Source: Rubrobacter sp.
GTDB taxonomy: Bacteria > Actinomycetota > Rubrobacteria > Rubrobacterales > Rubrobacteraceae
NCBI GenBank assembly: GCA_035936475.1
Contig: DASYWA010000084.1
Coordinates: 22,930-86,929 of the forward strand
DNA length: 64,000 bases
Direction: 5' to 3'
Shown here in pieces: positions 2,802 through 26,498 of the stretch. The notes beneath the pieces were generated by a model. It made no database searches. It saw only the letters and a program-made list of their open reading frames with translations, and had not been told where the DNA came from. The position numbers were made by a program, and so were the translations under genes. Positions within the stretch are counted from its first letter, which is position 1. Each line of letters begins with the position of its first letter.

Positions 2802-2829
2802 ACTTCCGAGAATTCCCGTTATGCGAAGT
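2802..2829. other. dif-like recombination site (11-6-11 imperfect palindrome)
   Basis: ACTTCCGAGAA-TTCCCG-TTATGCGAAGT; left arm differs at 1 of 11 positions from B. subtilis dif arm ACTTCCTAGAA; right arm starts TTATG like XerD arms; arms complementary at 8/11. Confidence 0.55.
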
Positions 2830-2889
2830 TCGCATGGGTGAGGGAGGTTCGGCCGCCTCCAAGCTAAGGGAGCAACGTCACTCGTTTGG

Positions 2890-3096
2890 CTATCGCATAC
2901 CCTTTGGGCCACTGCTTCGGCCGCTGCCCAAGAAGTACACGTCTGCCCAAAACGTGGCGCCCATGGAACTAACAAGGTCGACCTGTTCTCTGGAGAGGGA
3001 CAAATTGTAGTCGTTCTCCGAATCGGCGTAGATCACGCACGCGAAGGTGACGAGGTGCTCATCAGCCAGCGCCCTTACCTTTTCGACGTATGGCAT
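2890..3096 (-). pseudogene. Small low-GC ORF, probably a 5'-truncated DUF4279-like protein
   Basis: C-terminal pattern NLSLSREQVDLVSSMGATFWADVY resembles DUF4279 C-termini (recognition only); frame is open upstream only to a TGA at ~3130. Confidence 0.4.
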
Positions 3097-3247
3097 TAGC
3101 CGTTCGATCTCGACCAGCGATTCGTTTTCTCAAGAACCGGTGAGTTGCGGAAGAAACGCCTATACCCTCCCTTTCTCTAGATTTTGTCCGCCTCTAAGCC
3201 TGTTTGAGAGTTGATCTGCTCAGGATCTGCCATAGTTGTGCAGGCTC

Positions 3248-4192
3248 CTATATCGGGAGGGTATTATACTGATATGCCTTGCTGGCCAGTTCCTCGGCGC
3301 GGCGGATGTAGCGCAGGGTGGTCTTGGGATCGGAGTGGCCGAGGAATTGCTGGATGACGAGGAGGGGCGCCTCGTTCACGGCCATGTTGGTGCCTACGGT
3401 GTGGCGGATGGAGTGCGGGCTTATGGGCTTGGTTATGCCGGCGGCGCGGACGTACTTTTTTACTATGTTCTGGACGGAGCGGGTCGTGAGGGGCTTGTCC
3501 TTGCCCACACGGGAGGTCAGGAGGGGCTTGCGGGCGTCCGTGTGGGAGTTGAGGGAGCGGCCTGAGAGGAGGACGTAGCGCTGGACGAGGCGCCAGAGGT
3601 CCGGTGAGATCGGGACGTTGCGGATCTTGTCTCCCTTGCCGAGCACGCGGAGCATGACCGCGTCGTTGCCGGTGTCCTTAAAATCGGAGAGCTTGAGCCC
3701 GACAACCTCGGCCTCGCGCAGGCCGCACCCGGCCATGACCGCGAGCAGGACGTAGTCGCGGTAGTTGTCCGAGCGGGCGGCGTTGAGCATGCGCTGGAGC
3801 TCGTCCTCGGTGAGCACGTTGTAGGCCGGGTCCTGGCGCACGCGCGGGCTCTTGGCGAAGAAGCGCAGGGCCTCCGGGTTGACGGTCGTCGCACCCGTCA
3901 TAAACGTGAAGATCAAAAACCTTCGGAGCACCGCGAGCTTCTTGGCCGCCGTCGCCGCAGCGTAGCTGCTTATCAGGTGCTCCCGGTACAGGGACACATC
4001 CTCCGCTGTCAACCCCGACAGGTCTTTCCCAAGCTCCCCCACCAGGTAGGCGACGAAGAGCCGGATCTCTGTATTATAGGTTTTTATAGTCTGGGGGCTG
4101 GTTAGGGTGCGGAGGTAGAGGGCGATTAGGCGGTCGGTCTCCGGGGAGGTCTTTGCGGGGAGGGCGGGGGCCGGGACCGGGAGGTCAGTCAT
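3248..4192 (-). CDS. Tyrosine recombinase (Xer/integrase family) with intact catalytic residues
   Basis: GLREAE (R), GKGDK (K), HSIRH (H-x-x-R), LGH, TTLRY (Y); N-terminal SAM-like domain; start overlaps apt stop (ATGACTGA). Confidence 0.93.
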   Translation of the reverse strand: MTDLPVPAPALPAKTSPETDRLIALYLRTLTSPQTIKTYNTEIRLFVAYLVGELGKDLSGLTAEDVSLYREHLISSYAAATAAKKLAVLRRFLIFTFMTGATTVNPEALRFFAKSPRVRQDPAYNVLTEDELQRMLNAARSDNYRDYVLLAVMAGCGLREAEVVGLKLSDFKDTGNDAVMLRVLGKGDKIRNVPISPDLWRLVQRYVLLSGRSLNSHTDARKPLLTSRVGKDKPLTTRSVQNIVKKYVRAAGITKPISPHSIRHTVGTNMAVNEAPLLVIQQFLGHSDPKTTLRYIRRAEELASKAYQYNTLPI

Positions 4193-4736
4193 CGGGGGTG
4201 GCGTAGGTTATCAGCGAGACGACCTCGTAGGGGGCGAGGCGGGAGCGGCCGTCTAGGTAGCCGAGCTCTATGAGGAAGGCGACGCCCGCGACCGTTCCGC
4301 CGGCGTTCTCGACGAGGTCGCACATGGCGCGGGCGGTGCCGCCGGTGGCGAGGAGGTCGTCGGCGACGAGGACGCGCGACCCCTCGCGGATGGAATCGGC
4401 GTGGGCCTCCAGGGTGTCGGTGCCGTACTCGAGGTCGTAGGTGGCGGAGATCGTCTTTCGGGGGAGCTTGTTCGGTTTGCGGGCGAGGACGAGACCCTTT
4501 TTTGCCCTGTAGGCCAGCGCGGTACCGAAGACGAAGCCGCGGGCCTCGGCCGAGAGGATGTGGTCGTAGCCGAGGTGCTCGGTGGCGGCGTGGAGGGCGT
4601 CCGTGGCGGCGTGGAGGGCGGGTCCGTCCTCTATTACGGGGGTTATGTCTTTGTAGGAGATGCCGGGTTTGGGGAAGTCTGGGACGGTGCGGATGCGGGA
4701 CCTGACCGTCTTCAGGGCGTCCTCGGGAGCGGGCAT
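4185..4736 (-). CDS. apt: Adenine phosphoribosyltransferase
   Basis: VPDFPKPGI.YKDITP, EARGF, LEYGTD, DDLLATGGT. Confidence 0.97.
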   Translation of the reverse strand: MPAPEDALKTVRSRIRTVPDFPKPGISYKDITPVIEDGPALHAATDALHAATEHLGYDHILSAEARGFVFGTALAYRAKKGLVLARKPNKLPRKTISATYDLEYGTDTLEAHADSIREGSRVLVADDLLATGGTARAMCDLVENAGGTVAGVAFLIELGYLDGRSRLAPYEVVSLITYATPDD

Positions 4737-13707: not shown

Positions 13708-14307
13708 CTAGCCTTCCCTCTCGTCCGGGTCCGGTGCCGGGACCTCGGCGGACGAGGTCAGGCGCTCGCGGACGCGGGCGAGCTCCTCGGGCGAGACGAG
13801 CGAGTCCAGCGGGGGGAAGTCCTCCCGGCTTCCCGCGTCGGCGGCGGCGAGAAAATCGTCGGTCACGGCGAGGAGGGCCGGCGAGCCCGGCGCTTCCCTG
13901 TCGGCGCCGACCTCGGAGAGAAGGTTACGCTCCAGCAGGTTTCTGACCACCGCGTCGGAGTTCACGCCCCGCACCCGCGAGACAGCACCCCGGGTCAGGG
14001 GGCCGAGGTAGAGGGCGCAGGCGAGCACCTCGTGGGCCGCCCCGGAGAGCGGGGCCGGGCGGGCCTCCTCCCTGAAGCGCTCGACGACCCCGGCGCAGGC
14101 CGGGTTCGTGGAGAAGAGGTGCCCGCCGGCCACGGCGCGCAGGACTATGCCTGAGCCCTCCGGGGAGTACCGGGCGGAGAGGTTCCCGAGCGCCGCGGCG
14201 GTCTCCTTCTCGGAGAGCCCCGTGGCGGAGGCTAAGTCGGCGAGGCGGACGGGACGGGGGCTCACCAGGAGGACCGCCTCCACGAGGTGTTCTGGGGCCG
14301 GGATCAC
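13708..14307 (-). CDS. scpB: SMC-Scp complex subunit ScpB
   Basis: VEAVLLVS, LSGAAHEVLA, RGVNSD, TDDFL. Confidence 0.9.
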   Translation of the reverse strand: MIPAPEHLVEAVLLVSPRPVRLADLASATGLSEKETAAALGNLSARYSPEGSGIVLRAVAGGHLFSTNPACAGVVERFREEARPAPLSGAAHEVLACALYLGPLTRGAVSRVRGVNSDAVVRNLLERNLLSEVGADREAPGSPALLAVTDDFLAAADAGSREDFPPLDSLVSPEELARVRERLTSSAEVPAPDPDEREG

Positions 14308-15041
14308 GCGTCGGGTTCCGGCAGGGGTTCCAGGGTGAGCTCCCCCAGAGGTTCCGGCTGGAGCAGCTTCACGGCGCCTTCCTGGGCCAGGGAGAGCGCG
14401 GCGGCGAAGGCCACGGCCGATCGCAGGCGGTCCATGCCGCGGGTCAGGTCCTCGTAGGAGACGGGGCCGCGCAGGAGGCCGGCCCGGATCAGGCCGGCAA
14501 GCTCCTGGAGCGTCACCGTTATGGGCCCGAGGTGCCCCACGGGCGGCTCCACGAGGCGCGAGAAGGCCCGCCGGGCCGCGAGCGTCACCCGGTCGCCCGA
14601 GACGCGCAGCCGCCCCGGTCTCGGCGCCACCGTGTGGGCCGAAGGGTAATGACCGGCTGAGCGGGCGAAGCGGGCGCGCAGGTCCTCGGCGGCGCGCCGG
14701 ATCTTGAGGTACTCCTGCAGGCGCTCGGCCAGCTCCTCCGGGGAGGCGGCGGCCACTTCATCGGCGTCGGGCTCGGCTTCGAGGGCCGGGGAGAGGGTGC
14801 GGCTCTTCAGCAGGATCAGGGCCGCCGCGGATCCTGCGAAGTCCGTGTCGCGGTCGAGGGCGTTATGGGCCCCGGGGTCGCGGGAGCCGGCGTAGAGGCC
14901 GACGAGCTCGCGCAGGGGGATCTCGAAGATCTCGAGCTCGTCTTTGAGGACGAGGGCCAAAAGCCACTCGTAGGGGCCGGAGTAGACGTCGAGCTCGACG
15001 GTGAAGTCCGCCAGAGAACGTCCGGTAGCGGGCGCGGTCAC
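14304..15041 (-). CDS. scpA: Kleisin ScpA
   Basis: F.VELDVYSGP..LLL.LV..E.EI.EIPL N-terminus; adjacent to scpB. Confidence 0.85.
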   Translation of the reverse strand: MTAPATGRSLADFTVELDVYSGPYEWLLALVLKDELEIFEIPLRELVGLYAGSRDPGAHNALDRDTDFAGSAAALILLKSRTLSPALEAEPDADEVAAASPEELAERLQEYLKIRRAAEDLRARFARSAGHYPSAHTVAPRPGRLRVSGDRVTLAARRAFSRLVEPPVGHLGPITVTLQELAGLIRAGLLRGPVSYEDLTRGMDRLRSAVAFAAALSLAQEGAVKLLQPEPLGELTLEPLPEPDA

Positions 15042-16171
15042 AGCACCTCCGAGTGGAGCGGCAGCACGGACGAGAGCTCGCTGTGGTCCGACCCGGTCGC
15101 CCTGGCGAGCACGGGGTCGACGACCCGGCCCTCGGCGACGGCGACCCCGCGGGCGAAGCCGGCGTCGGACTTCAGGGCGTCGGCGAGGCCGAGGCCCGCG
15201 AGGCGGCGGACGTGGGGCAGGAGCGCGTTGCTCAGGGCCCGGGTGGCCGTCACGGGGACGGCGGCCGGGACGTTCTTGACGCAGTAGTGGATAACGCCGG
15301 CCTCGACGAAGGTGGGGCCGTCCAAGGTCGTCGGCCGCGAGGTCGCAACACAGCCGCCGTAGTCCACGTCGACGTCCACGATCACGGCCCCCTCCTTCAT
15401 CCCCCCGACGGTCTCGCGGTCGACAAGCGCCGGCGTGCGGTCGCCGACGACGTGGACGGCGCCTATGAGGAGGTCGGCCCTAAGGACGGCGTCGCGGATG
15501 CCCATGGTGCTCGCGGCCAGCGTGGTGACGCCCGCGATGCGGGCGAGCTCCAGGGCGCGCAGCCGGTCCACGTCGCGGTCGATCACGACCACCTGGGCGC
15601 CGAGGCCGCTCGCCATCCTGGCCGCGCCCGAGCCGACGATGCCGCACCCGAGGACCACGACCCGCCCGGGCCTCACCCCCGCGGCGCCCCCGAGCAGTAC
15701 GCCCCGACCGCCGGACTGGCGGAGAAGGTAGTGGGCCCCGATCTGGGGCGTCAGGCGGCCCGCGATCTCGCTCATCGGCGTGAGGATGGGCAGGCGCCCC
15801 TGAGCGTCCCTGACGGTCTCCATGGCGAAGGCGACGCACCGGGAGGCCAGAAGATCCCGCATAAGGTCCCGGTTGATCGGCAACGAGAGGAACGAGAGCA
15901 ACACGAGGTCTTCCCGCAGCCGCCCCCGCTCCTCCTCGACCGGCCCGTAGACCTTGACGACTAGCTCGGAGTCGTCCCAGACCCTTGCGGCGTCCGCGAC
16001 TACCCTGGCGCCGGCCTCCTCGTAGGCGCTATCCGCGATGCCGGAGGCCTCCCCCGCCCCGGCCTCGACGAGCACCCTGTGCCCGGCCCGGCCGAGCTCG
16101 TGCGCGGCGTGCGGGGCCAGCGCCACCCGCGTCTCCCCCGGCGTCCTCTCCCTGGTCACCCCTATCCTCAC
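15038..16171 (-). CDS. ald: Alanine dehydrogenase-like protein with catalytic substitutions
   Basis: GETRVAL, PMSEIAGR, GGRGVLLGG, DVDVDYGG, NVPAAVP; GGAGG SD before GTG 16171. Confidence 0.8.
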   Translation of the reverse strand: MRIGVTRERTPGETRVALAPHAAHELGRAGHRVLVEAGAGEASGIADSAYEEAGARVVADAARVWDDSELVVKVYGPVEEERGRLREDLVLLSFLSLPINRDLMRDLLASRCVAFAMETVRDAQGRLPILTPMSEIAGRLTPQIGAHYLLRQSGGRGVLLGGAAGVRPGRVVVLGCGIVGSGAARMASGLGAQVVVIDRDVDRLRALELARIAGVTTLAASTMGIRDAVLRADLLIGAVHVVGDRTPALVDRETVGGMKEGAVIVDVDVDYGGCVATSRPTTLDGPTFVEAGVIHYCVKNVPAAVPVTATRALSNALLPHVRRLAGLGLADALKSDAGFARGVAVAEGRVVDPVLARATGSDHSELSSVLPLHSEVL

Positions 16172-16288
16172 GGCATCCTCCCCGGTACGCGGGGCGCGCC
16201 TGGGATCGGCCCCGGAGTGTGTCCTCGCCCCGACATGGTCAAAGGCCAACCCGAAGCCGTCCGGCGGGCCGACGTCGCCGCAGCACCG

Positions 16289-18522
<2,234 letters not shown>

Positions 18523-19710: not shown

Positions 19711-21375
19711 CTACCTGTGGGTGAGGAGTTCGGAGGCGTGGGCCAGGGAGGCGTCGTCGATGCGGCCGGAGAGCATGCGGGCCATCTCCTTGAGGCGCTC
19801 TTCGCCGGTCACGCGGGTAATGCGGGTTATGGTGCGTCCGGCGGACTCTTCTTTGGCGACGACGACGTGGGAGGCGGCTTCGGAGGCGATCTGGGGGAGG
19901 TGGGTGATAGTGAGGACCTGGTTGCGCATCCCGAGCTCTCGCAGCTTGGCGCCGACGGCCGTGGCGGTCTCGCCGCCGATGCCGGCGTCGACCTCGTCGA
20001 AGACGTAGGTGGCGCCCGGCTCGACCCGCTCCTGGGCGAGGCGGATGGCTAGCATTATGCGGGAGAGCTCGCCGCCCGAGGCGTAGCGCCTGACGGGGAG
20101 CTCCGGCTCTCCGGGGTTGGGCCGGATCTCGAACTCCACCCGCTCCCTGCCCGTCGGCCCCGCCTCCGCCGGCACGAGCCTCGCCCGGAACTCCGTCCGC
20201 CCGAGGTTCAGGCCCGAGAGGTTCTCCTGCACCTTCGCGGCCAGGCGCTTGGCGGCCTTCTCCCGGCCGGCCGAGAGCGTCCCGGCGAGCTCGCCGAGGC
20301 GCCGCTCACCTTCCGCAACGCGCGCCTCTAGTTCCGCCGCCTCCTCGTCGAGGTTCTCCAGGCGCGAGAGGCGGGCGCGGGCCTCTTCCAGGTAGCCCTC
20401 CACGTCCCCGTACTTGCGCTCGAGGGCGCGCAGGGCAGCGATGCGGTCCTCCACGACCTCCAGGCGGCCCGGGTCCGCTTCGAGCTCCTCCACGTAGGAG
20501 CGGAGCTCGTAGAGCACGTCCTCGAGCTCCGCCGTGAGGCCGCCGAGGCGCTCCAGCAGCCCCGAGAGGCCGGCGTCGAAGCGGAGGGCGGTCTCGAGCT
20601 CGCCGGTCGCGCGGGCGACCGAGTCGACCGCGCCGCCGCCCTCCTCCGAGGAGAGAAAGGTGGCCGCGGCGGCGGCCGCCTGCTGGAGGTCGGTGACGTT
20701 GCGAAGGCGGTCGCGCTCGCGGGCGAGCTCGTCCGCCTCTTGCGTGCTGTACCCGGCCGCTTCGAGCTCCGAGACCTGGAAGCGCAGGAAGTCCGCCTCG
20801 CGCAGGCGGGCCTCCCCCGTGGCGCGGACCTCGGCGAGCTCCCGGCGGGCCGCCTCGACGGAGCGCCAGAGCTCCTCGTGGTCCCGGCGGGCCTTCGTGG
20901 CCGCGCCGGTCAGGAAGTCGTCCAGGATGGCGAGCTGCTCTGCGGGTTCGGTGAGACGGGCCTGCTCCCGCTGGCTGTGGTAGGAGACGAGGCGATCGCC
21001 CAAAGTGCCCAGGGCGCGCACCGGCACCGAGACCCCGCCCACAAAGCACCGGGACCTGCCTTCGCCCGTCAGCGTCCGGCGGAGAATCAGGCCGTCGTCC
21101 GCGTCCACCTCCTCGGCCAGGTCGCCCAAAGCCTCGGCGAGGAGGTCTTGGCCCGTCTCTTCCGGGAGGATAAAGGTTCCCTCGATCGTTGCCTTCTCGG
21201 CGCCGGCGCGGACGGCCTCGGAGCGGGCGCGGCCCCCGAGGAGGAGTTGGAGGGCGGTGGCGAGCAGCGTCTTGCCGGCGCCCGTCTCGCCGGTAATCGC
21301 ATTAAGGCCGGGGGAGAGCTCCAGGGTGGCCTCTTCGATAAGGGCCACGTTTTGGACCGAGATCTCCGTCAGCAT
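19711..21375 (-). CDS. recN: DNA repair protein RecN
   Basis: TGETGAGKT, ASGGELSRIMLA, FDEVDAGIGG, ITHLPQIA. Confidence 0.97.
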   Translation of the reverse strand: MLTEISVQNVALIEEATLELSPGLNAITGETGAGKTLLATALQLLLGGRARSEAVRAGAEKATIEGTFILPEETGQDLLAEALGDLAEEVDADDGLILRRTLTGEGRSRCFVGGVSVPVRALGTLGDRLVSYHSQREQARLTEPAEQLAILDDFLTGAATKARRDHEELWRSVEAARRELAEVRATGEARLREADFLRFQVSELEAAGYSTQEADELARERDRLRNVTDLQQAAAAAATFLSSEEGGGAVDSVARATGELETALRFDAGLSGLLERLGGLTAELEDVLYELRSYVEELEADPGRLEVVEDRIAALRALERKYGDVEGYLEEARARLSRLENLDEEAAELEARVAEGERRLGELAGTLSAGREKAAKRLAAKVQENLSGLNLGRTEFRARLVPAEAGPTGRERVEFEIRPNPGEPELPVRRYASGGELSRIMLAIRLAQERVEPGATYVFDEVDAGIGGETATAVGAKLRELGMRNQVLTITHLPQIASEAASHVVVAKEESAGRTITRITRVTGEERLKEMARMLSGRIDDASLAHASELLTHR

Positions 21376-22184
21376 TACAGGAACGTCCGCCTGACGGCCC
21401 GCCACCAGCTCCACTCGTCGGTGCGCCCGATCCTTACGCTGTTAGGGGAGAGCCGGAGCTCGATCTTCCCCCCCTCCCCCACCTCGCGCGGGTCGTCCCC
21501 GTCGAGCGAGAGCAGCGCCTCCCTTCCTACCACCTGGAGCTCGACTACCTGCTCCGCCCCGAGCACGAGCGGCCGGCTGACGAGCGCGTGCGGCGCGATG
21601 GGCACCAGCACGAAACACCCGGCGTCGCCCGAGATGATCGGGCCCCCCGCCGACAGCGCGTAGGCGGTCGAGCCGAGCGGCGTGGCCGCTATGAAGCCGT
21701 CGCACCGGAAGGCGAAGAGCTCCTCCCCCCCTATGGTCACGTCCACGGAGACGAGCTGGTGGGGCCGCTTCTTGATGAGCACGGCGTCGTTGGCCGCGAG
21801 CTCGGGCTCCTCGCCGGGGCGGCGCACCTCCAGCATCCGGTACTCCTGGACGGAGAGGCCGCCACCCAAGACTTTCTCGACGCCGGCCTCCATCTCGTCG
21901 GGGAGCATCCCGGACATGAAGCCGACCTTGCCGAGGTTCACGCCGAGCAGGACGCGCCCGGGGTACATCCTGGCCGCCTTGAGCATCGTCCCGTCGCCGC
22001 CTAGCACGAAGACGAGGTCGGGCTCGACGGCGCCGTCGGGCTCGCCCTGGGGCCTCACGTCTGCGACCTCGACGCCGCCCTGCTCCAGCGCGGCCACCAG
22101 CCGCTCGGAGTGCCCGTCGTCAACCGTAGGGTTCGCGACTACCGCAACGCGCCGCAGCTCGCCGATGTCGCCCTTCTCAGGCAC
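21375..22184 (-). CDS. nadK: NAD kinase
   Basis: LGGDGT, GKVGF, ATPLGSTAYALSAGGP. Confidence 0.95.
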   Translation of the reverse strand: MPEKGDIGELRRVAVVANPTVDDGHSERLVAALEQGGVEVADVRPQGEPDGAVEPDLVFVLGGDGTMLKAARMYPGRVLLGVNLGKVGFMSGMLPDEMEAGVEKVLGGGLSVQEYRMLEVRRPGEEPELAANDAVLIKKRPHQLVSVDVTIGGEELFAFRCDGFIAATPLGSTAYALSAGGPIISGDAGCFVLVPIAPHALVSRPLVLGAEQVVELQVVGREALLSLDGDDPREVGEGGKIELRLSPNSVRIGRTDEWSWWRAVRRTFL

Positions 22185-25414: not shown

Positions 25415-26498
25415 CGACGGCCTCTATCGCGCGGCGGGCCTCGTCGTCGCCCACTGCCACGCCGTAGACGGGCTGGCCCACGTCTCTGAGCAGGACGAAG
25501 CGGTGGTTCGTCCCACCGGTGGCCCCGCCGTTCGCGGCGAGGCGTTTCTTGTCGCGGGCCATGGCCCTGAGGGCTACCTCCGCGTCGATACCGGGGGAGC
25601 GTCGGGGAAGGCCTGCGGACTCGAGGAGGTCTCTGTGGAGGTCCGAAAGGTCGGTGCCGAAGCGGTCGGCGGAGATGGCGGCCTCGGCGACCATGCCGGC
25701 GGCGACGGCCGAGCCGTGCGGGAGGGCGTAGTCGGCGGCGGCTTCGAGGGCGTGGCCGATGGTGTGGCCGTAGTTGAGGATGGCGCGGCGGCCGGCCTCG
25801 CGCTCGTCGTCGGCGACGACCTCGGCCTTGAAGCGGACGGAGTGCAGGATCAGGGCGCGCAGGGCGTCAGCGTCGCCGGCGCGGGCGGCCGGGATGAGGT
25901 TCAGGTCCTCGAAGAACCGGCCCCCCGCGAGCAGCCCCATCTTGACGACCTCGGCGAGGCCGTTCGATACCTCGGCCTCCGGCAGCGTCAGGAGCCAGGC
26001 GGGGTCGGCCGCCACGAGGAGGGGCCTGACGAAGGCGCCGACGAGGTTCTTGCCCTCGGGGAGATCGAGGCCCGTCTTGCCGCCGACGGCGCTGTCGACC
26101 ATCGCGAGGAGCGAGGTCGGGAGCATCACCAGGTCTACCCCGCGCATGTACGTGGCGGCGACGAAGCCGCCGAGGTCCCCGACCACCCCGCCGCCGAGGG
26201 CGAAGAGCGTACCGTCGCGCGTCAGCCCCATCCGGGCCAGGCGGCGCACCACGTCGGCGTAGGTCGAAACACCCTTGGAGGCCTCCCCGGCCGGTATCTC
26301 CACGGTGCCGGCGACGGGCCAGCCCGCGGCTTGCAGGGCGCTTTCGAGACCGGCGGCGTGCAGGGGTCCGACGTTCGAGTCGGTAAGGATGGCGCAGGGG
26401 CGGGGGACCAGCGTGTCGACAATGCTCCGGAGGACGTCACCGCCCACCGTCACCGGGTAGGGCGGGGCCACCCTGACCTCTACCGTGTCGGCAGCCAT
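25407..26498 (-). CDS. aroB: 3-dehydroquinate synthase
   Basis: GGGVVGD, MVDSAVGGKTG, LNYGHTIGHA. Confidence 0.96.
   Translation of the reverse strand: MAADTVEVRVAPPYPVTVGGDVLRSIVDTLVPRPCAILTDSNVGPLHAAGLESALQAAGWPVAGTVEIPAGEASKGVSTYADVVRRLARMGLTRDGTLFALGGGVVGDLGGFVAATYMRGVDLVMLPTSLLAMVDSAVGGKTGLDLPEGKNLVGAFVRPLLVAADPAWLLTLPEAEVSNGLAEVVKMGLLAGGRFFEDLNLIPAARAGDADALRALILHSVRFKAEVVADDEREAGRRAILNYGHTIGHALEAAADYALPHGSAVAAGMVAEAAISADRFGTDLSDLHRDLLESAGLPRRSPGIDAEVALRAMARDKKRLAANGGATGGTNHRFVLLRDVGQPVYGVAVGDDEARRAIEAVVG

What the first reader, a model, noticed from the sequence alone, without database searches (positions are those of the whole stretch)
3248..4192. Intact, non-canonical Xer-family recombinase translationally coupled to apt and next to its putative site
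All catalytic residues are present (R, K, H-x-x-R, H, Y), but the canonical XerC/D LP..L segment and C-terminal helix motif are not recognisable. The gene is lower in GC than its neighbours and overlaps the apt stop (ATGACTGA), so it looks domesticated. No transposase, excisionase or phage genes are nearby. In mycobacteria xerD lies between pyrG and scpA; no recombinase is in that position here (16.2-18.5 kb). Single-recombinase systems encoded near their dif site are known (XerS/difSL, XerH/difH). This could be an undescribed actinobacterial equivalent (inference).
Basis: partly seen in the sequence, partly recalled or inferred. Interest (0 to 1): 0.65.

Follow-up and report, generated by a model that had tools for sequence, protein, structure and literature searches.

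The report
Rubrobacter's own chromosome-unlinking recombinase
This gene encodes the only intact Xer-type recombinase of a Rubrobacteraceae bacterium; it sits beside its probable 28-base target at the replication terminus, so it very probably separates joined daughter chromosomes in a bacterial class reported to lack standard Xer enzymes.

Summary
Window 3248-4192 (-) is an intact 314-aa tyrosine recombinase with all six catalytic residues (R159 K189 H260 R263 H286 Y295). Its ATG overlaps the apt stop by 8 nt.

It resembles Xer proteins but is neither XerC, XerD, XerA, XerS nor IntI: every curated model scores far below its cut-off. In a tree it falls outside the XerC+XerD clade.

The gene is single-copy and fused to apt across the whole class Rubrobacteria: 82/104 genomes, 45/49 high-quality. 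Other Actinomycetota carry a canonical XerC+XerD pair. Rubrobacteria carry none.

A 28-bp near-palindromic 11-6-11 site, unique in the complete genomes checked, lies 10 bp to 3.6 kb downstream of the gene. In six complete genomes the pair sits 43-49% of the chromosome from dnaA. In this contig GC and AT skew flip there.

Best reading (about 0.8): a lineage-specific Xer/dif dimer-resolution system with one active recombinase, analogous to XerS/difSL, XerH/difH and XerA.

Two qualifications:
- Most Rubrobacteria also keep a catalytically dead Xer-like paralogue, so "single recombinase" means single active one.
- This genus carries up to about 140 related sites that bound shuffled accessory-gene modules and may exploit the enzyme.

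The scan had already noted this system: the site in this genome, and the gene-plus-site pair in another Rubrobacter genome.

The parts
3248..4192 (-). Rubrobacteria-type Xer recombinase gene: 314 aa, catalytic R159 K189 H260 R263 H286 Y295, conserved C-terminal tail AYxYNTLP
4185..4736 (-). apt (adenine phosphoribosyltransferase). Its stop codon lies inside the first codons of xer. The apt-xer pair is conserved class-wide.
4185..4192 (-). 8-nt overlap ATGACTGA (xer start / apt stop). Overlaps of 8-20 nt occur in about 23 of 28 loci across the class.
2802..2829 (.). dif-like 11-6-11 site. On the gene strand it reads ACTTCGCATAA-CGGGAA-TTCTCGGAAGT. The conserved palindromic edge extends to 2801-2830. 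It is unique in the genome at up to 2 arm mismatches.
2830..3247 (.). Hypervariable spacer between xer and the site (GC 0.55). It holds a 68-aa ORF (2890-3096, -) with no family match. It shows no homology to the same interval in species whose Xer is 90-94% identical.

Best explanation
This is the chromosome-dimer-resolution recombinase of Rubrobacteria, a lineage-specific Xer-like enzyme that replaces XerC/XerD.

Proposed mechanism: four copies bind the two nearly identical 11-bp arms of two sister copies of the adjacent dif-like site at the replication terminus. They exchange strands across the 6-bp centre in two steps, using Tyr295 with Arg159, Lys189, His260, Arg263 and His286. This converts a chromosome dimer into monomers at cell division, probably under the control of the FtsK translocase.

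Shown here: an intact catalytic set; single-copy core status in the class; absence of XerC/D; physical linkage to a site that is unique in the genomes checked; a terminus position; and presence of FtsK with a gamma domain.

Inferred: binding of this protein to this site, homotetramer stoichiometry, FtsK dependence and the dimer-resolution phenotype.
For: 1. Core gene. Orthologues at 66% identity or more occur as one intact copy per genome, two genomes showing a second copy (broken in G071), in 82/104 genomes of the class (17/17 genera) and 45/49 high-quality genomes. apt-xer synteny holds in every locus examined. The gene tree groups by genus.

2. No alternative. The own genome has 12 PF00589 matches. 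The others identified are phage-type integrases or fragments, one family of which occurs in only 6/33 genomes of the genus. 33 of 34 sampled non-Rubrobacteria Actinomycetota genomes have matches at 265-370 bits to the XerD model, nearly all two. The three Rubrobacteria in that sample have one at about 148 bits.

3. Site.
- The exact arms ACTTCGCATAA-N6-TTCTCGGAAGT occur exactly once in 22 of 33 genomes of the genus. When on the same contig as xer (18 genomes), the site is always on the xer strand, 0.3-3.6 kb downstream.
- In genus g29 the site lies 10-13 bp after the stop codon.
- Other genera carry GTTTCCGATAA-N6-TTCTCGGAAAC or ATTTCCGATAA-N6-TTCTCGGAAAT, unique in five complete genomes and 15-1512 bp from xer.
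- The arms are conserved and the centre varies.
- Only about 32 bp of site aligns between species, amid unrelated DNA.

4. Terminus. The dnaA-to-xer distance is 48.3, 48.1, 48.8, 45.1, 46.5 and 42.7% of the chromosome in six complete genomes from four genera. In the own contig, cumulative GC and AT skew peak at 24-28 kb and the site is at 25.7 kb.

5. FtsK with a gamma domain is encoded 10 kb away.

6. The closest solved structures by sequence are E. coli XerD (3.6e-23) and archaeal XerA (1e-20).
Against: - There is no biochemical or genetic evidence.
- The structure prediction failed (pLDDT 50).
- The arms in this genus differ at 3 of 11 positions. A one-base inner asymmetry (ATAA vs AGAA) is conserved class-wide, which could mean two different binding partners.
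- A conserved dead paralogue exists.
- 4 of 49 high-quality genomes show no orthologue at E <= 1e-25.
- In this genus many related sites exist elsewhere, so the enzyme may have further substrates.
Confidence: 0.8

Rival explanations
1. A two-protein system: the active Xer works at dif with the conserved, catalytically dead Xer-like paralogue (about 280 aa). Each binds one arm, as XerC and XerD do, with only one partner cutting.
For: - The paralogue is as conserved as Xer: 87/104 genomes, 46/49 high-quality, 68-92% identity.
- It keeps the two-domain layout, Arg-II and Tyr, but lacks Arg-I, the hairpin Lys, His-II and His-III.
- The dif arms keep a conserved inner asymmetry across genera.
Against: - It is not found in this assembly (98% complete), nor at E <= 1e-30 in five other genomes of the genus. 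Its neighbouring sortase is missing here too, so this could be an assembly gap.
- It lies near the origin side, not near dif.
- With two dead protomers only one strand pair could be exchanged, which does not complete dimer resolution.
- The arms in most genera differ by a single base, which fits one binding specificity.
Confidence: 0.15
2. The enzyme's main job is moving gene modules, integron-like or dif-module-like, or integrating foreign DNA at dif. Dimer resolution would be secondary or absent.
For: - The own genome has 77 composite sites that share the TTCTC[CG]GAAGT arm, with 0 in a reversed control. They are co-oriented within contigs and many lie at contig ends. They bound 0.5-3.7 kb modules of accessory genes.
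- Three adjacent modules of contig C190 lie at separate loci in relatives, with break points at the sites.
- Two modules are present in C45 but absent at the same locus in three relatives.
- Of the tyrosine-recombinase families traced across relatives, Xer is the only one present in all array-bearing genomes checked. No Y1/RAYT transposase is present.
- DNA on both sides of dif turns over completely between species.
Against: - Such sites are absent from the five complete genomes of three other genera that were searched, and nearly absent from three species of this genus that keep xer and dif. The conserved function therefore cannot be the arrays.
- The left arm of array sites (AGTGCGTGGAA or ACCTCGTAGAA) differs from both dif arms.
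- The empty loci carry no site.
Confidence: 0.1
3. A domesticated or resident mobile-element integrase unrelated to chromosome segregation, whose neighbourhood to the site is coincidental.
For: GC is slightly lower than in the neighbours. The nearest non-Rubrobacteria relatives are orphan metagenomic proteins from unrelated phyla at 45% identity or less.
Against: - GC3 equals that of the neighbours.
- The gene shows class-wide synteny with apt and clustering by genus.
- No mobile genes are nearby.
- Site adjacency holds across at least nine genera and in all complete genomes tested.
Confidence: 0.03

Closest known systems
XerS/difSL of streptococci and lactococci (PMC1914069, PMC2965235)
   Same: One active recombinase replaces XerC/D. 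The gene lies directly beside its site at the terminus. FtsK is present.
   Different: It is not a member: the XerS model scores 88 bits against a cut-off of 267. The site here is 28 bp and near-palindromic, whereas difSL is longer and asymmetric (from my own knowledge). The host is a different phylum. The gene is fused to apt.
XerH/difH of Helicobacter and Campylobacter (PMC3325230)
   Same: A single Xer acts on a near-palindromic site with slightly unequal arms.
   Different: Only weak sequence similarity to XerH (PDB 5jjv, E 3.5e-6).
Archaeal XerA/dif
   Same: A single recombinase and a palindromic 11-6-11 site. The XerA model and the XerA structures are among the best matches.
   Different: 144 bits against a cut-off of 220. 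It is bacterial. XerA acts without FtsK (from my own knowledge), whereas here an FtsK with a gamma domain is encoded.
XerC/XerD-dif of E. coli and other Actinomycetota
   Same: Same fold family and catalytic residues, a 28-bp 11-6-11 site at the terminus, and a 6-bp centre.
   Different: Scores are less than half the cut-offs. It lies outside the XerC+XerD clade (SH-aLRT 91-93). There is no second active partner. It is not in the pyrG-scpA slot. Here the outer arm positions are palindromic and the inner ones differ, the reverse of E. coli dif.
Acinetobacter dif modules (pdif) (PMC6449649, PMC11705084, PMC12907356)
   Same: Many extra dif-like sites bound small accessory-gene modules that appear in different contexts.
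   Different: Here the sites are chromosomal, in an actinobacterial genus, and co-oriented rather than alternating. They are composite (a conserved CTATTCACC flank plus tandem 25-bp units) and would use a single Xer. The link to Xer is inferred only.

Membership tests
Tyrosine recombinase superfamily (PF00589) | Catalytic domain match and the R-K-H-R-H/W-Y residues | tested here: met
   PF00589 117.9 bits against a cut-off of 27.1. R159 K189 H260 R263 H286 Y295 align with XerD.
XerC (TIGR02224) | Score above the curated equivalog cut-off | tested here: not met
   151 bits against 335
XerD (TIGR02225) | Score above the curated cut-off | tested here: not met
   148 bits against 330. Other sampled Actinomycetota score 265-370.
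XerD (TIGR02225) | Placement inside the XerC/XerD clade, with a paired active partner | tested here: not met
   The tree puts the Rubrobacteria clade (support 99) outside the XerC+XerD clade. There is no second active Xer.
XerA (NF040815) | Score above the curated cut-off | tested here: not met
   144 bits against 220
XerS (NF003462) | Score above the curated cut-off | tested here: not met
   87.6 bits against 267
XerH | Close sequence similarity to XerH | tested here: not met
   PDB 5jjv E 3.5e-6, 29.8 bits, catalytic domain only
Integron integrase IntI (TIGR02249) | Score above the cut-off | tested here: not met
   81.8 bits against 265. IntI4 2a3v matches only residues 239-298.
Integron integrase IntI (TIGR02249) | IntI-specific insertion | not tested
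   The IntI-specific insertion was not examined separately.
Xer/dif dimer-resolution systems (functional class) | Single-copy core recombinase gene | tested here: met
   82/104 genomes, 45/49 high-quality; two genomes show a second copy, broken in G071
Xer/dif dimer-resolution systems (functional class) | One unique 28-bp 11-6-11 site per chromosome | tested here: met
Xer/dif dimer-resolution systems (functional class) | Site at the replication terminus | tested here: met
   43-49% of the chromosome from dnaA in six complete genomes. Skew flips at the site in the own contig.
Xer/dif dimer-resolution systems (functional class) | FtsK with a gamma domain available | tested here: met
   PF09397 94.9 bits at G000:C84:15843-16025. 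Its interaction with Xer was not tested.
Xer/dif dimer-resolution systems (functional class) | Recombination at the site and a dimer-resolution phenotype | not testable with these tools
   Needs biochemistry or genetics.

The most novel reading that the evidence does not exclude
In this Rubrobacter genus the same lone Xer also drives a chromosomal gene-module system. Up to about 140 co-oriented composite dif-like sites per genome bound 0.5-3.7 kb accessory-gene modules that are excised, shuffled and captured. It would work like an integron or like Acinetobacter dif modules, but be built on a single non-XerC/D recombinase. The conserved dead paralogue might act as a non-catalytic architectural partner.
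Probability: 0.35. Interest if true: 0.8.

Novelty: new variant of a known kind. Interest (0 to 1): 0.58.

Why it matters
Nearly all bacteria with circular chromosomes need Xer/dif. The only survey I could find that mentions the class lists Rubrobacteria among five classes where the Xer subgroup was not found, and suggests that class-specific simple recombinases may substitute (bioRxiv 10.1101/542381).

This gene and its site are that missing system. It would be a fifth independent solution alongside XerCD, XerS, XerH and XerA, in a deep-branching, radiation- and desiccation-tolerant actinobacterial class where chromosome dimers from frequent recombinational repair should be common.

It makes three things directly testable:
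- how a single enzyme orders strand exchange on a nearly symmetric site;
- what a conserved dead paralogue contributes;
- whether the many related sites in one genus form a Xer-driven gene-capture system.

Tried and rejected
- Structure: AlphaFold2 on a 22-sequence alignment (81-95% identity) gave pLDDT 50.4. It is too poor to use, so no fold search was run. Only window and the search for homologous proteins sequences were allowed in, which kept the alignment shallow.
- A REP/RAYT explanation for the repeated sites: no Y1 transposase in the genome.
- A second, sporadic Xer-like fragment on contig C111 as a possible partner: found in only 6/33 genomes of the genus, as 370-470-aa element integrases. 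Rejected.
Not supported.
- The 10-nt inverted repeat 3162-3171 / 3255-3264: about 0.1 expected by chance by my rough estimate, and one arm is the conserved NTLP codons. Left unexplained.
- Empty-site test at C45: the relatives lack the two modules but carry no resident site there, so it does not show site-specific insertion.
- Literature: searches for Rubrobacter with dif/Xer found only the one preprint. Kono et al. 2011 (PMC3025954) does not mention Rubrobacter in its main text.
- The nearest non-Rubrobacteria proteins (45% identity or less) are unnamed metagenomic orphans and gave no functional lead.

Full report
**The gene**

Window 3248-4192 on the minus strand is an uninterrupted 314-aa ORF. 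Its ATG (4192-4190) lies 8 nt inside the end of the apt ORF (4185-4736), giving ATGACTGA. apt itself is a clear adenine phosphoribosyltransferase (220 bits).

The protein has a Phage_integrase catalytic domain (5.5e-34) and an N-terminal SAM-like domain. Aligned with E. coli XerD and XerC, it has Arg159, Lys189, His260, Arg263, His286 and Tyr295 at the catalytic positions.

Its GC content (0.638) is a little below apt (0.681) and the genome (0.680). Third-position GC is the same (0.87 vs 0.886), so composition gives no sign of recent transfer.

**What it is not**

Curated NCBIfam models all fall far short of their cut-offs:

| Model | Score (bits) | Cut-off (bits) |
|---|---|---|
| XerC | 151 | 335 |
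| XerD | 148 | 330 |
| XerA | 144 | 220 |
| XerS | 88 | 267 |
| Integron integrase | 82 | 265 |

Among solved structures the best sequence matches are E. coli XerD (3.6e-23) and two archaeal XerA proteins (about 1e-20). XerH is marginal at 3.5e-6.

I built a 90-sequence tree rooted on this genome's phage-type integrases. The 26 Rubrobacteria sequences form one clade (SH-aLRT 99). Together with orphan metagenomic proteins they sit on the opposite side (91-93) from a clade holding E. coli XerC and XerD and 44 actinobacterial XerC/XerD proteins. This was a quick search with no bootstrap and without XerA, XerH, XerS or IntI anchors.

A scan of 1.8 billion cluster representatives shows a steep drop from the family (546 bits) to the next full-length protein (236 bits, 45% identity). 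That protein comes from a Pseudomonadota MAG. All neighbours are likewise below every Xer cut-off.

**Inventory of recombinases**

The assembly holding the window is G000: 3.16 Mb, 223 contigs, 98% complete. It has 12 PF00589 matches. This gene is the best match to both the domain and the XerD model, and none reaches a Xer cut-off.

- The other full-length matches carry the N-terminal motif of phage or ICE integrases.
- A Xer-like fragment at a contig end (C111) belongs to a family present in only 6 of 33 genomes of the genus.
- In a sample of 34 non-Rubrobacteria Actinomycetota genomes, 33 have matches at 265-370 bits to the XerD model, nearly all two, which is the XerC+XerD pair. The three Rubrobacteria in that sample have one match at about 148 bits.
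- The usual actinobacterial position of xerD is between pyrG and scpA (M. tuberculosis Rv1699-Rv1709, from my own knowledge). That locus is present in the window: recN 19711-21414, pyrG 16822-18492, scpA 14304-15041, scpB 13708-14307. It holds an alanine-dehydrogenase homologue instead.

**Distribution**

- Orthologues at 66% identity or more are found in 82 of 104 genomes of the class. The class is one family with 17 genera, and all 17 genera have the gene. Among high-quality genomes the count is 45 of 49. There is one intact copy each; two genomes show a second match, broken in G071.
- Named records include Rubrobacter marinus SCSIO 52915 and R. taiwanensis.
- apt lies directly upstream in all 21 loci of the genus that reach that far, and in 14 of 14 loci from other genera.
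- The xer start overlaps the apt 3' end by 8-20 nt in about 23 of 28 loci.
- The C-terminal tail AYxYNTLP is conserved class-wide.

**The site**

On the gene strand the site reads ACTTCGCATAA-CGGGAA-TTCTCGGAAGT (window 2802-2829), 418 bp past the stop codon.

- Within the genus: the exact 22 arm bases occur exactly once in 22 of 33 genomes, plus one genome with one mismatch, and never in the reversed-pattern control. Wherever site and gene share a contig (18 genomes), the site is on the gene strand and downstream, at 314-3606 bp. The centre varies (CGGGAA, CGGTAA, TGGTAA, CGGGGA, CGGTGG) while the arms do not.
- In genus g29: the same arms, with centres GGACAA or GTACAA, lie 10-13 bp after the stop codon in two complete genomes.
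- In genera g25, g27, g28 and g33: the site is GTTTCCGATAA-N6-TTCTCGGAAAC.
- In genera g30 and g32: it is ATTTCCGATAA-N6-TTCTCGGAAAT. For these six genera the site is 15-1512 bp from xer, in either orientation, and unique in each of five complete genomes.
- Arm symmetry: these arms differ from a perfect palindrome by one inner base (ATAA vs AGAA), an asymmetry kept in every genus.
- Flanking DNA: between species whose Xer is 90-94% identical, nothing between xer and the site, or beyond it, aligns. Only about 32 bp do, AACTTCGCATAA-N6-TTCTCGGAAGTT. The interval holds different ordinary genes in different species, such as a FemAB-like protein and a pyrophosphatase.

**Terminus**

| Genome | Position of xer | dnaA-to-xer distance (% of chromosome) |
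|---|---|---|
| G023 (C1, 4,378,772 bp, dnaA at base 25) | 2,116,240 (site at 2,115,598) | 48.3 |
| G117 | | 48.1 |
| G119 | | 48.8 |
| G084 | | 45.1 |
| G085 | | 46.5 |
| G075 | | 42.7 |

In the own 120-kb contig, cumulative GC skew peaks at 26-28 kb and cumulative AT skew at 24-26 kb. The site is at 25,731. An FtsK with a gamma domain (94.9 bits) is encoded about 10 kb away, just outside the window.

**Reading**

Taken together, this is a Xer/dif chromosome-dimer-resolution system with a single catalytically competent recombinase encoded beside its site. It works like XerS/difSL, XerH/difH and archaeal XerA but belongs to none of those families. Binding, stoichiometry, FtsK control and phenotype are inferred.

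The only paper in the searchable library that mentions the class in this context lists Rubrobacteria among five classes where the Xer subgroup was not found. It suggests class-specific simple recombinases may substitute (bioRxiv 10.1101/542381). Kono et al. 2011 does not mention Rubrobacter in its main text.

Earlier notes of this scan had already proposed the site in this genome (e1-5256084) and the gene-plus-site pair in another Rubrobacter genome (e1-4372921). I re-tested both claims independently here.

**Qualification 1: a dead paralogue**

A second Xer-like gene of about 280 aa is present in 87/104 genomes of the class, 46/49 high-quality, at 68-92% identity.

- In the two copies aligned, it has Thr for Arg-I, no hairpin Lys, Met for His-II and Val for His-III. 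It keeps Arg-II and Tyr and ends four residues after the Tyr.
- It lies 160-360 kb from dnaA in complete genomes and next to a sortase gene in G023.
- It is not in this assembly, and neither is the orthologous sortase. An assembly gap and a lineage loss therefore cannot be told apart.
- It may be a non-catalytic partner, or it may be unrelated.

**Qualification 2: related sites elsewhere**

A weight matrix finds 77 composite sites on 47 contigs of this genome and none in the reversed control. The consensus is TTATTCACCCG-AGTGCGTGGAA-GGGTTG-TTCTCCGAAGT, often followed by tandem 25-bp units whose arrangement mimics the dif site together with its left flank.

- They are co-oriented within contigs, and many lie within 500 bp of contig ends.
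- They bound 0.5-3.7 kb modules carrying regulators, transporters, metal and stress genes in either orientation.
- The three modules of contig C190 lie at separate loci in relatives, with break points at the sites. Most relatives carry the same methyltransferase gene without sites.
- Two modules (4.6 kb) on C45 are missing at the orthologous locus of three relatives, where no site is present.
- Counts per genome in the genus range from 0-1 (G016, G023, G007) to about 140.
- They are absent from the five complete genomes of three other genera that were searched.

So the arrays are an accessory feature of one genus, while xer and dif are core. That Xer acts on them is plausible: one arm is shared, no other tyrosine-recombinase family traced here is shared by the array-bearing genomes, and no RAYT is present. 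It remains unproven.

**Not done**

The structure model was unusable.

Noticed in passing
not in the window; L085:3210-4043 (G023:C1:4076212-4077042): A class-wide second Xer-like gene of about 280 aa. It lacks four of the six catalytic residues but keeps Arg-II and Tyr. It is present in 87/104 Rubrobacteria genomes, lies next to a sortase gene in G023, and is on the origin-proximal side. It is not found in this assembly.
   Followed up: partly
own genome, e.g. G000 contigs C190, C25, C14, C45, C195 (outside the window): About 77 composite dif-like sites that bound small accessory-gene modules. Many contig breaks fall at them. Counts per genome in the genus range from 0 to about 140.
   Followed up: partly
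window 2830-3247 and the matching intervals in L100-L102, L084, L099: DNA on both sides of the dif-like site is completely non-homologous between closely related species. Only about 32 bp of site is conserved.
   Followed up: yes
window 15038-16249 (-): An alanine-dehydrogenase homologue (407 bits to TIGR00518) sits between pyrG and scpA, where mycobacteria have xerD.
   Followed up: partly
G000:C84:15843-16025, about 7 kb before the window start: FtsK with a gamma domain (754-aa ORF) is encoded only about 10 kb from the dif-like site.
   Followed up: partly
G000:C25:1210-1300 and 1680-1740: Two neighbouring modules carry a shared upstream motif, GGTATGTTTAGC-N14-GGGTA. It resembles sigma-B/sigma-F type stress promoters and lies ahead of CsbD-like and YsnF-like stress genes.
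   Followed up: no
G071:C8:118358-119289: A second, broken copy of xer (one TAG plus a frame change) lies 7 kb from the intact copy in one genome of another genus.
   Followed up: no
G023:C1:2117070-2117186: The xer orthologue of this near-complete genome has a frame break with a TAA near residues 31-37. It could be a sequencing error or an altered N-terminus.
   Followed up: no
L259 (G000:C45:13000-22691), query 1931-2343: The thioesterase gene next to the C45 module array is inverted relative to all five relatives examined.
   Followed up: no
window 3162-3171 and 3255-3264: A perfect 10-nt inverted repeat (ATACCCTCCC / GGGAGGGTAT). One arm lies in the last codons of xer and the other 83 nt downstream. 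Its meaning is unknown and it may be chance.
   Followed up: no
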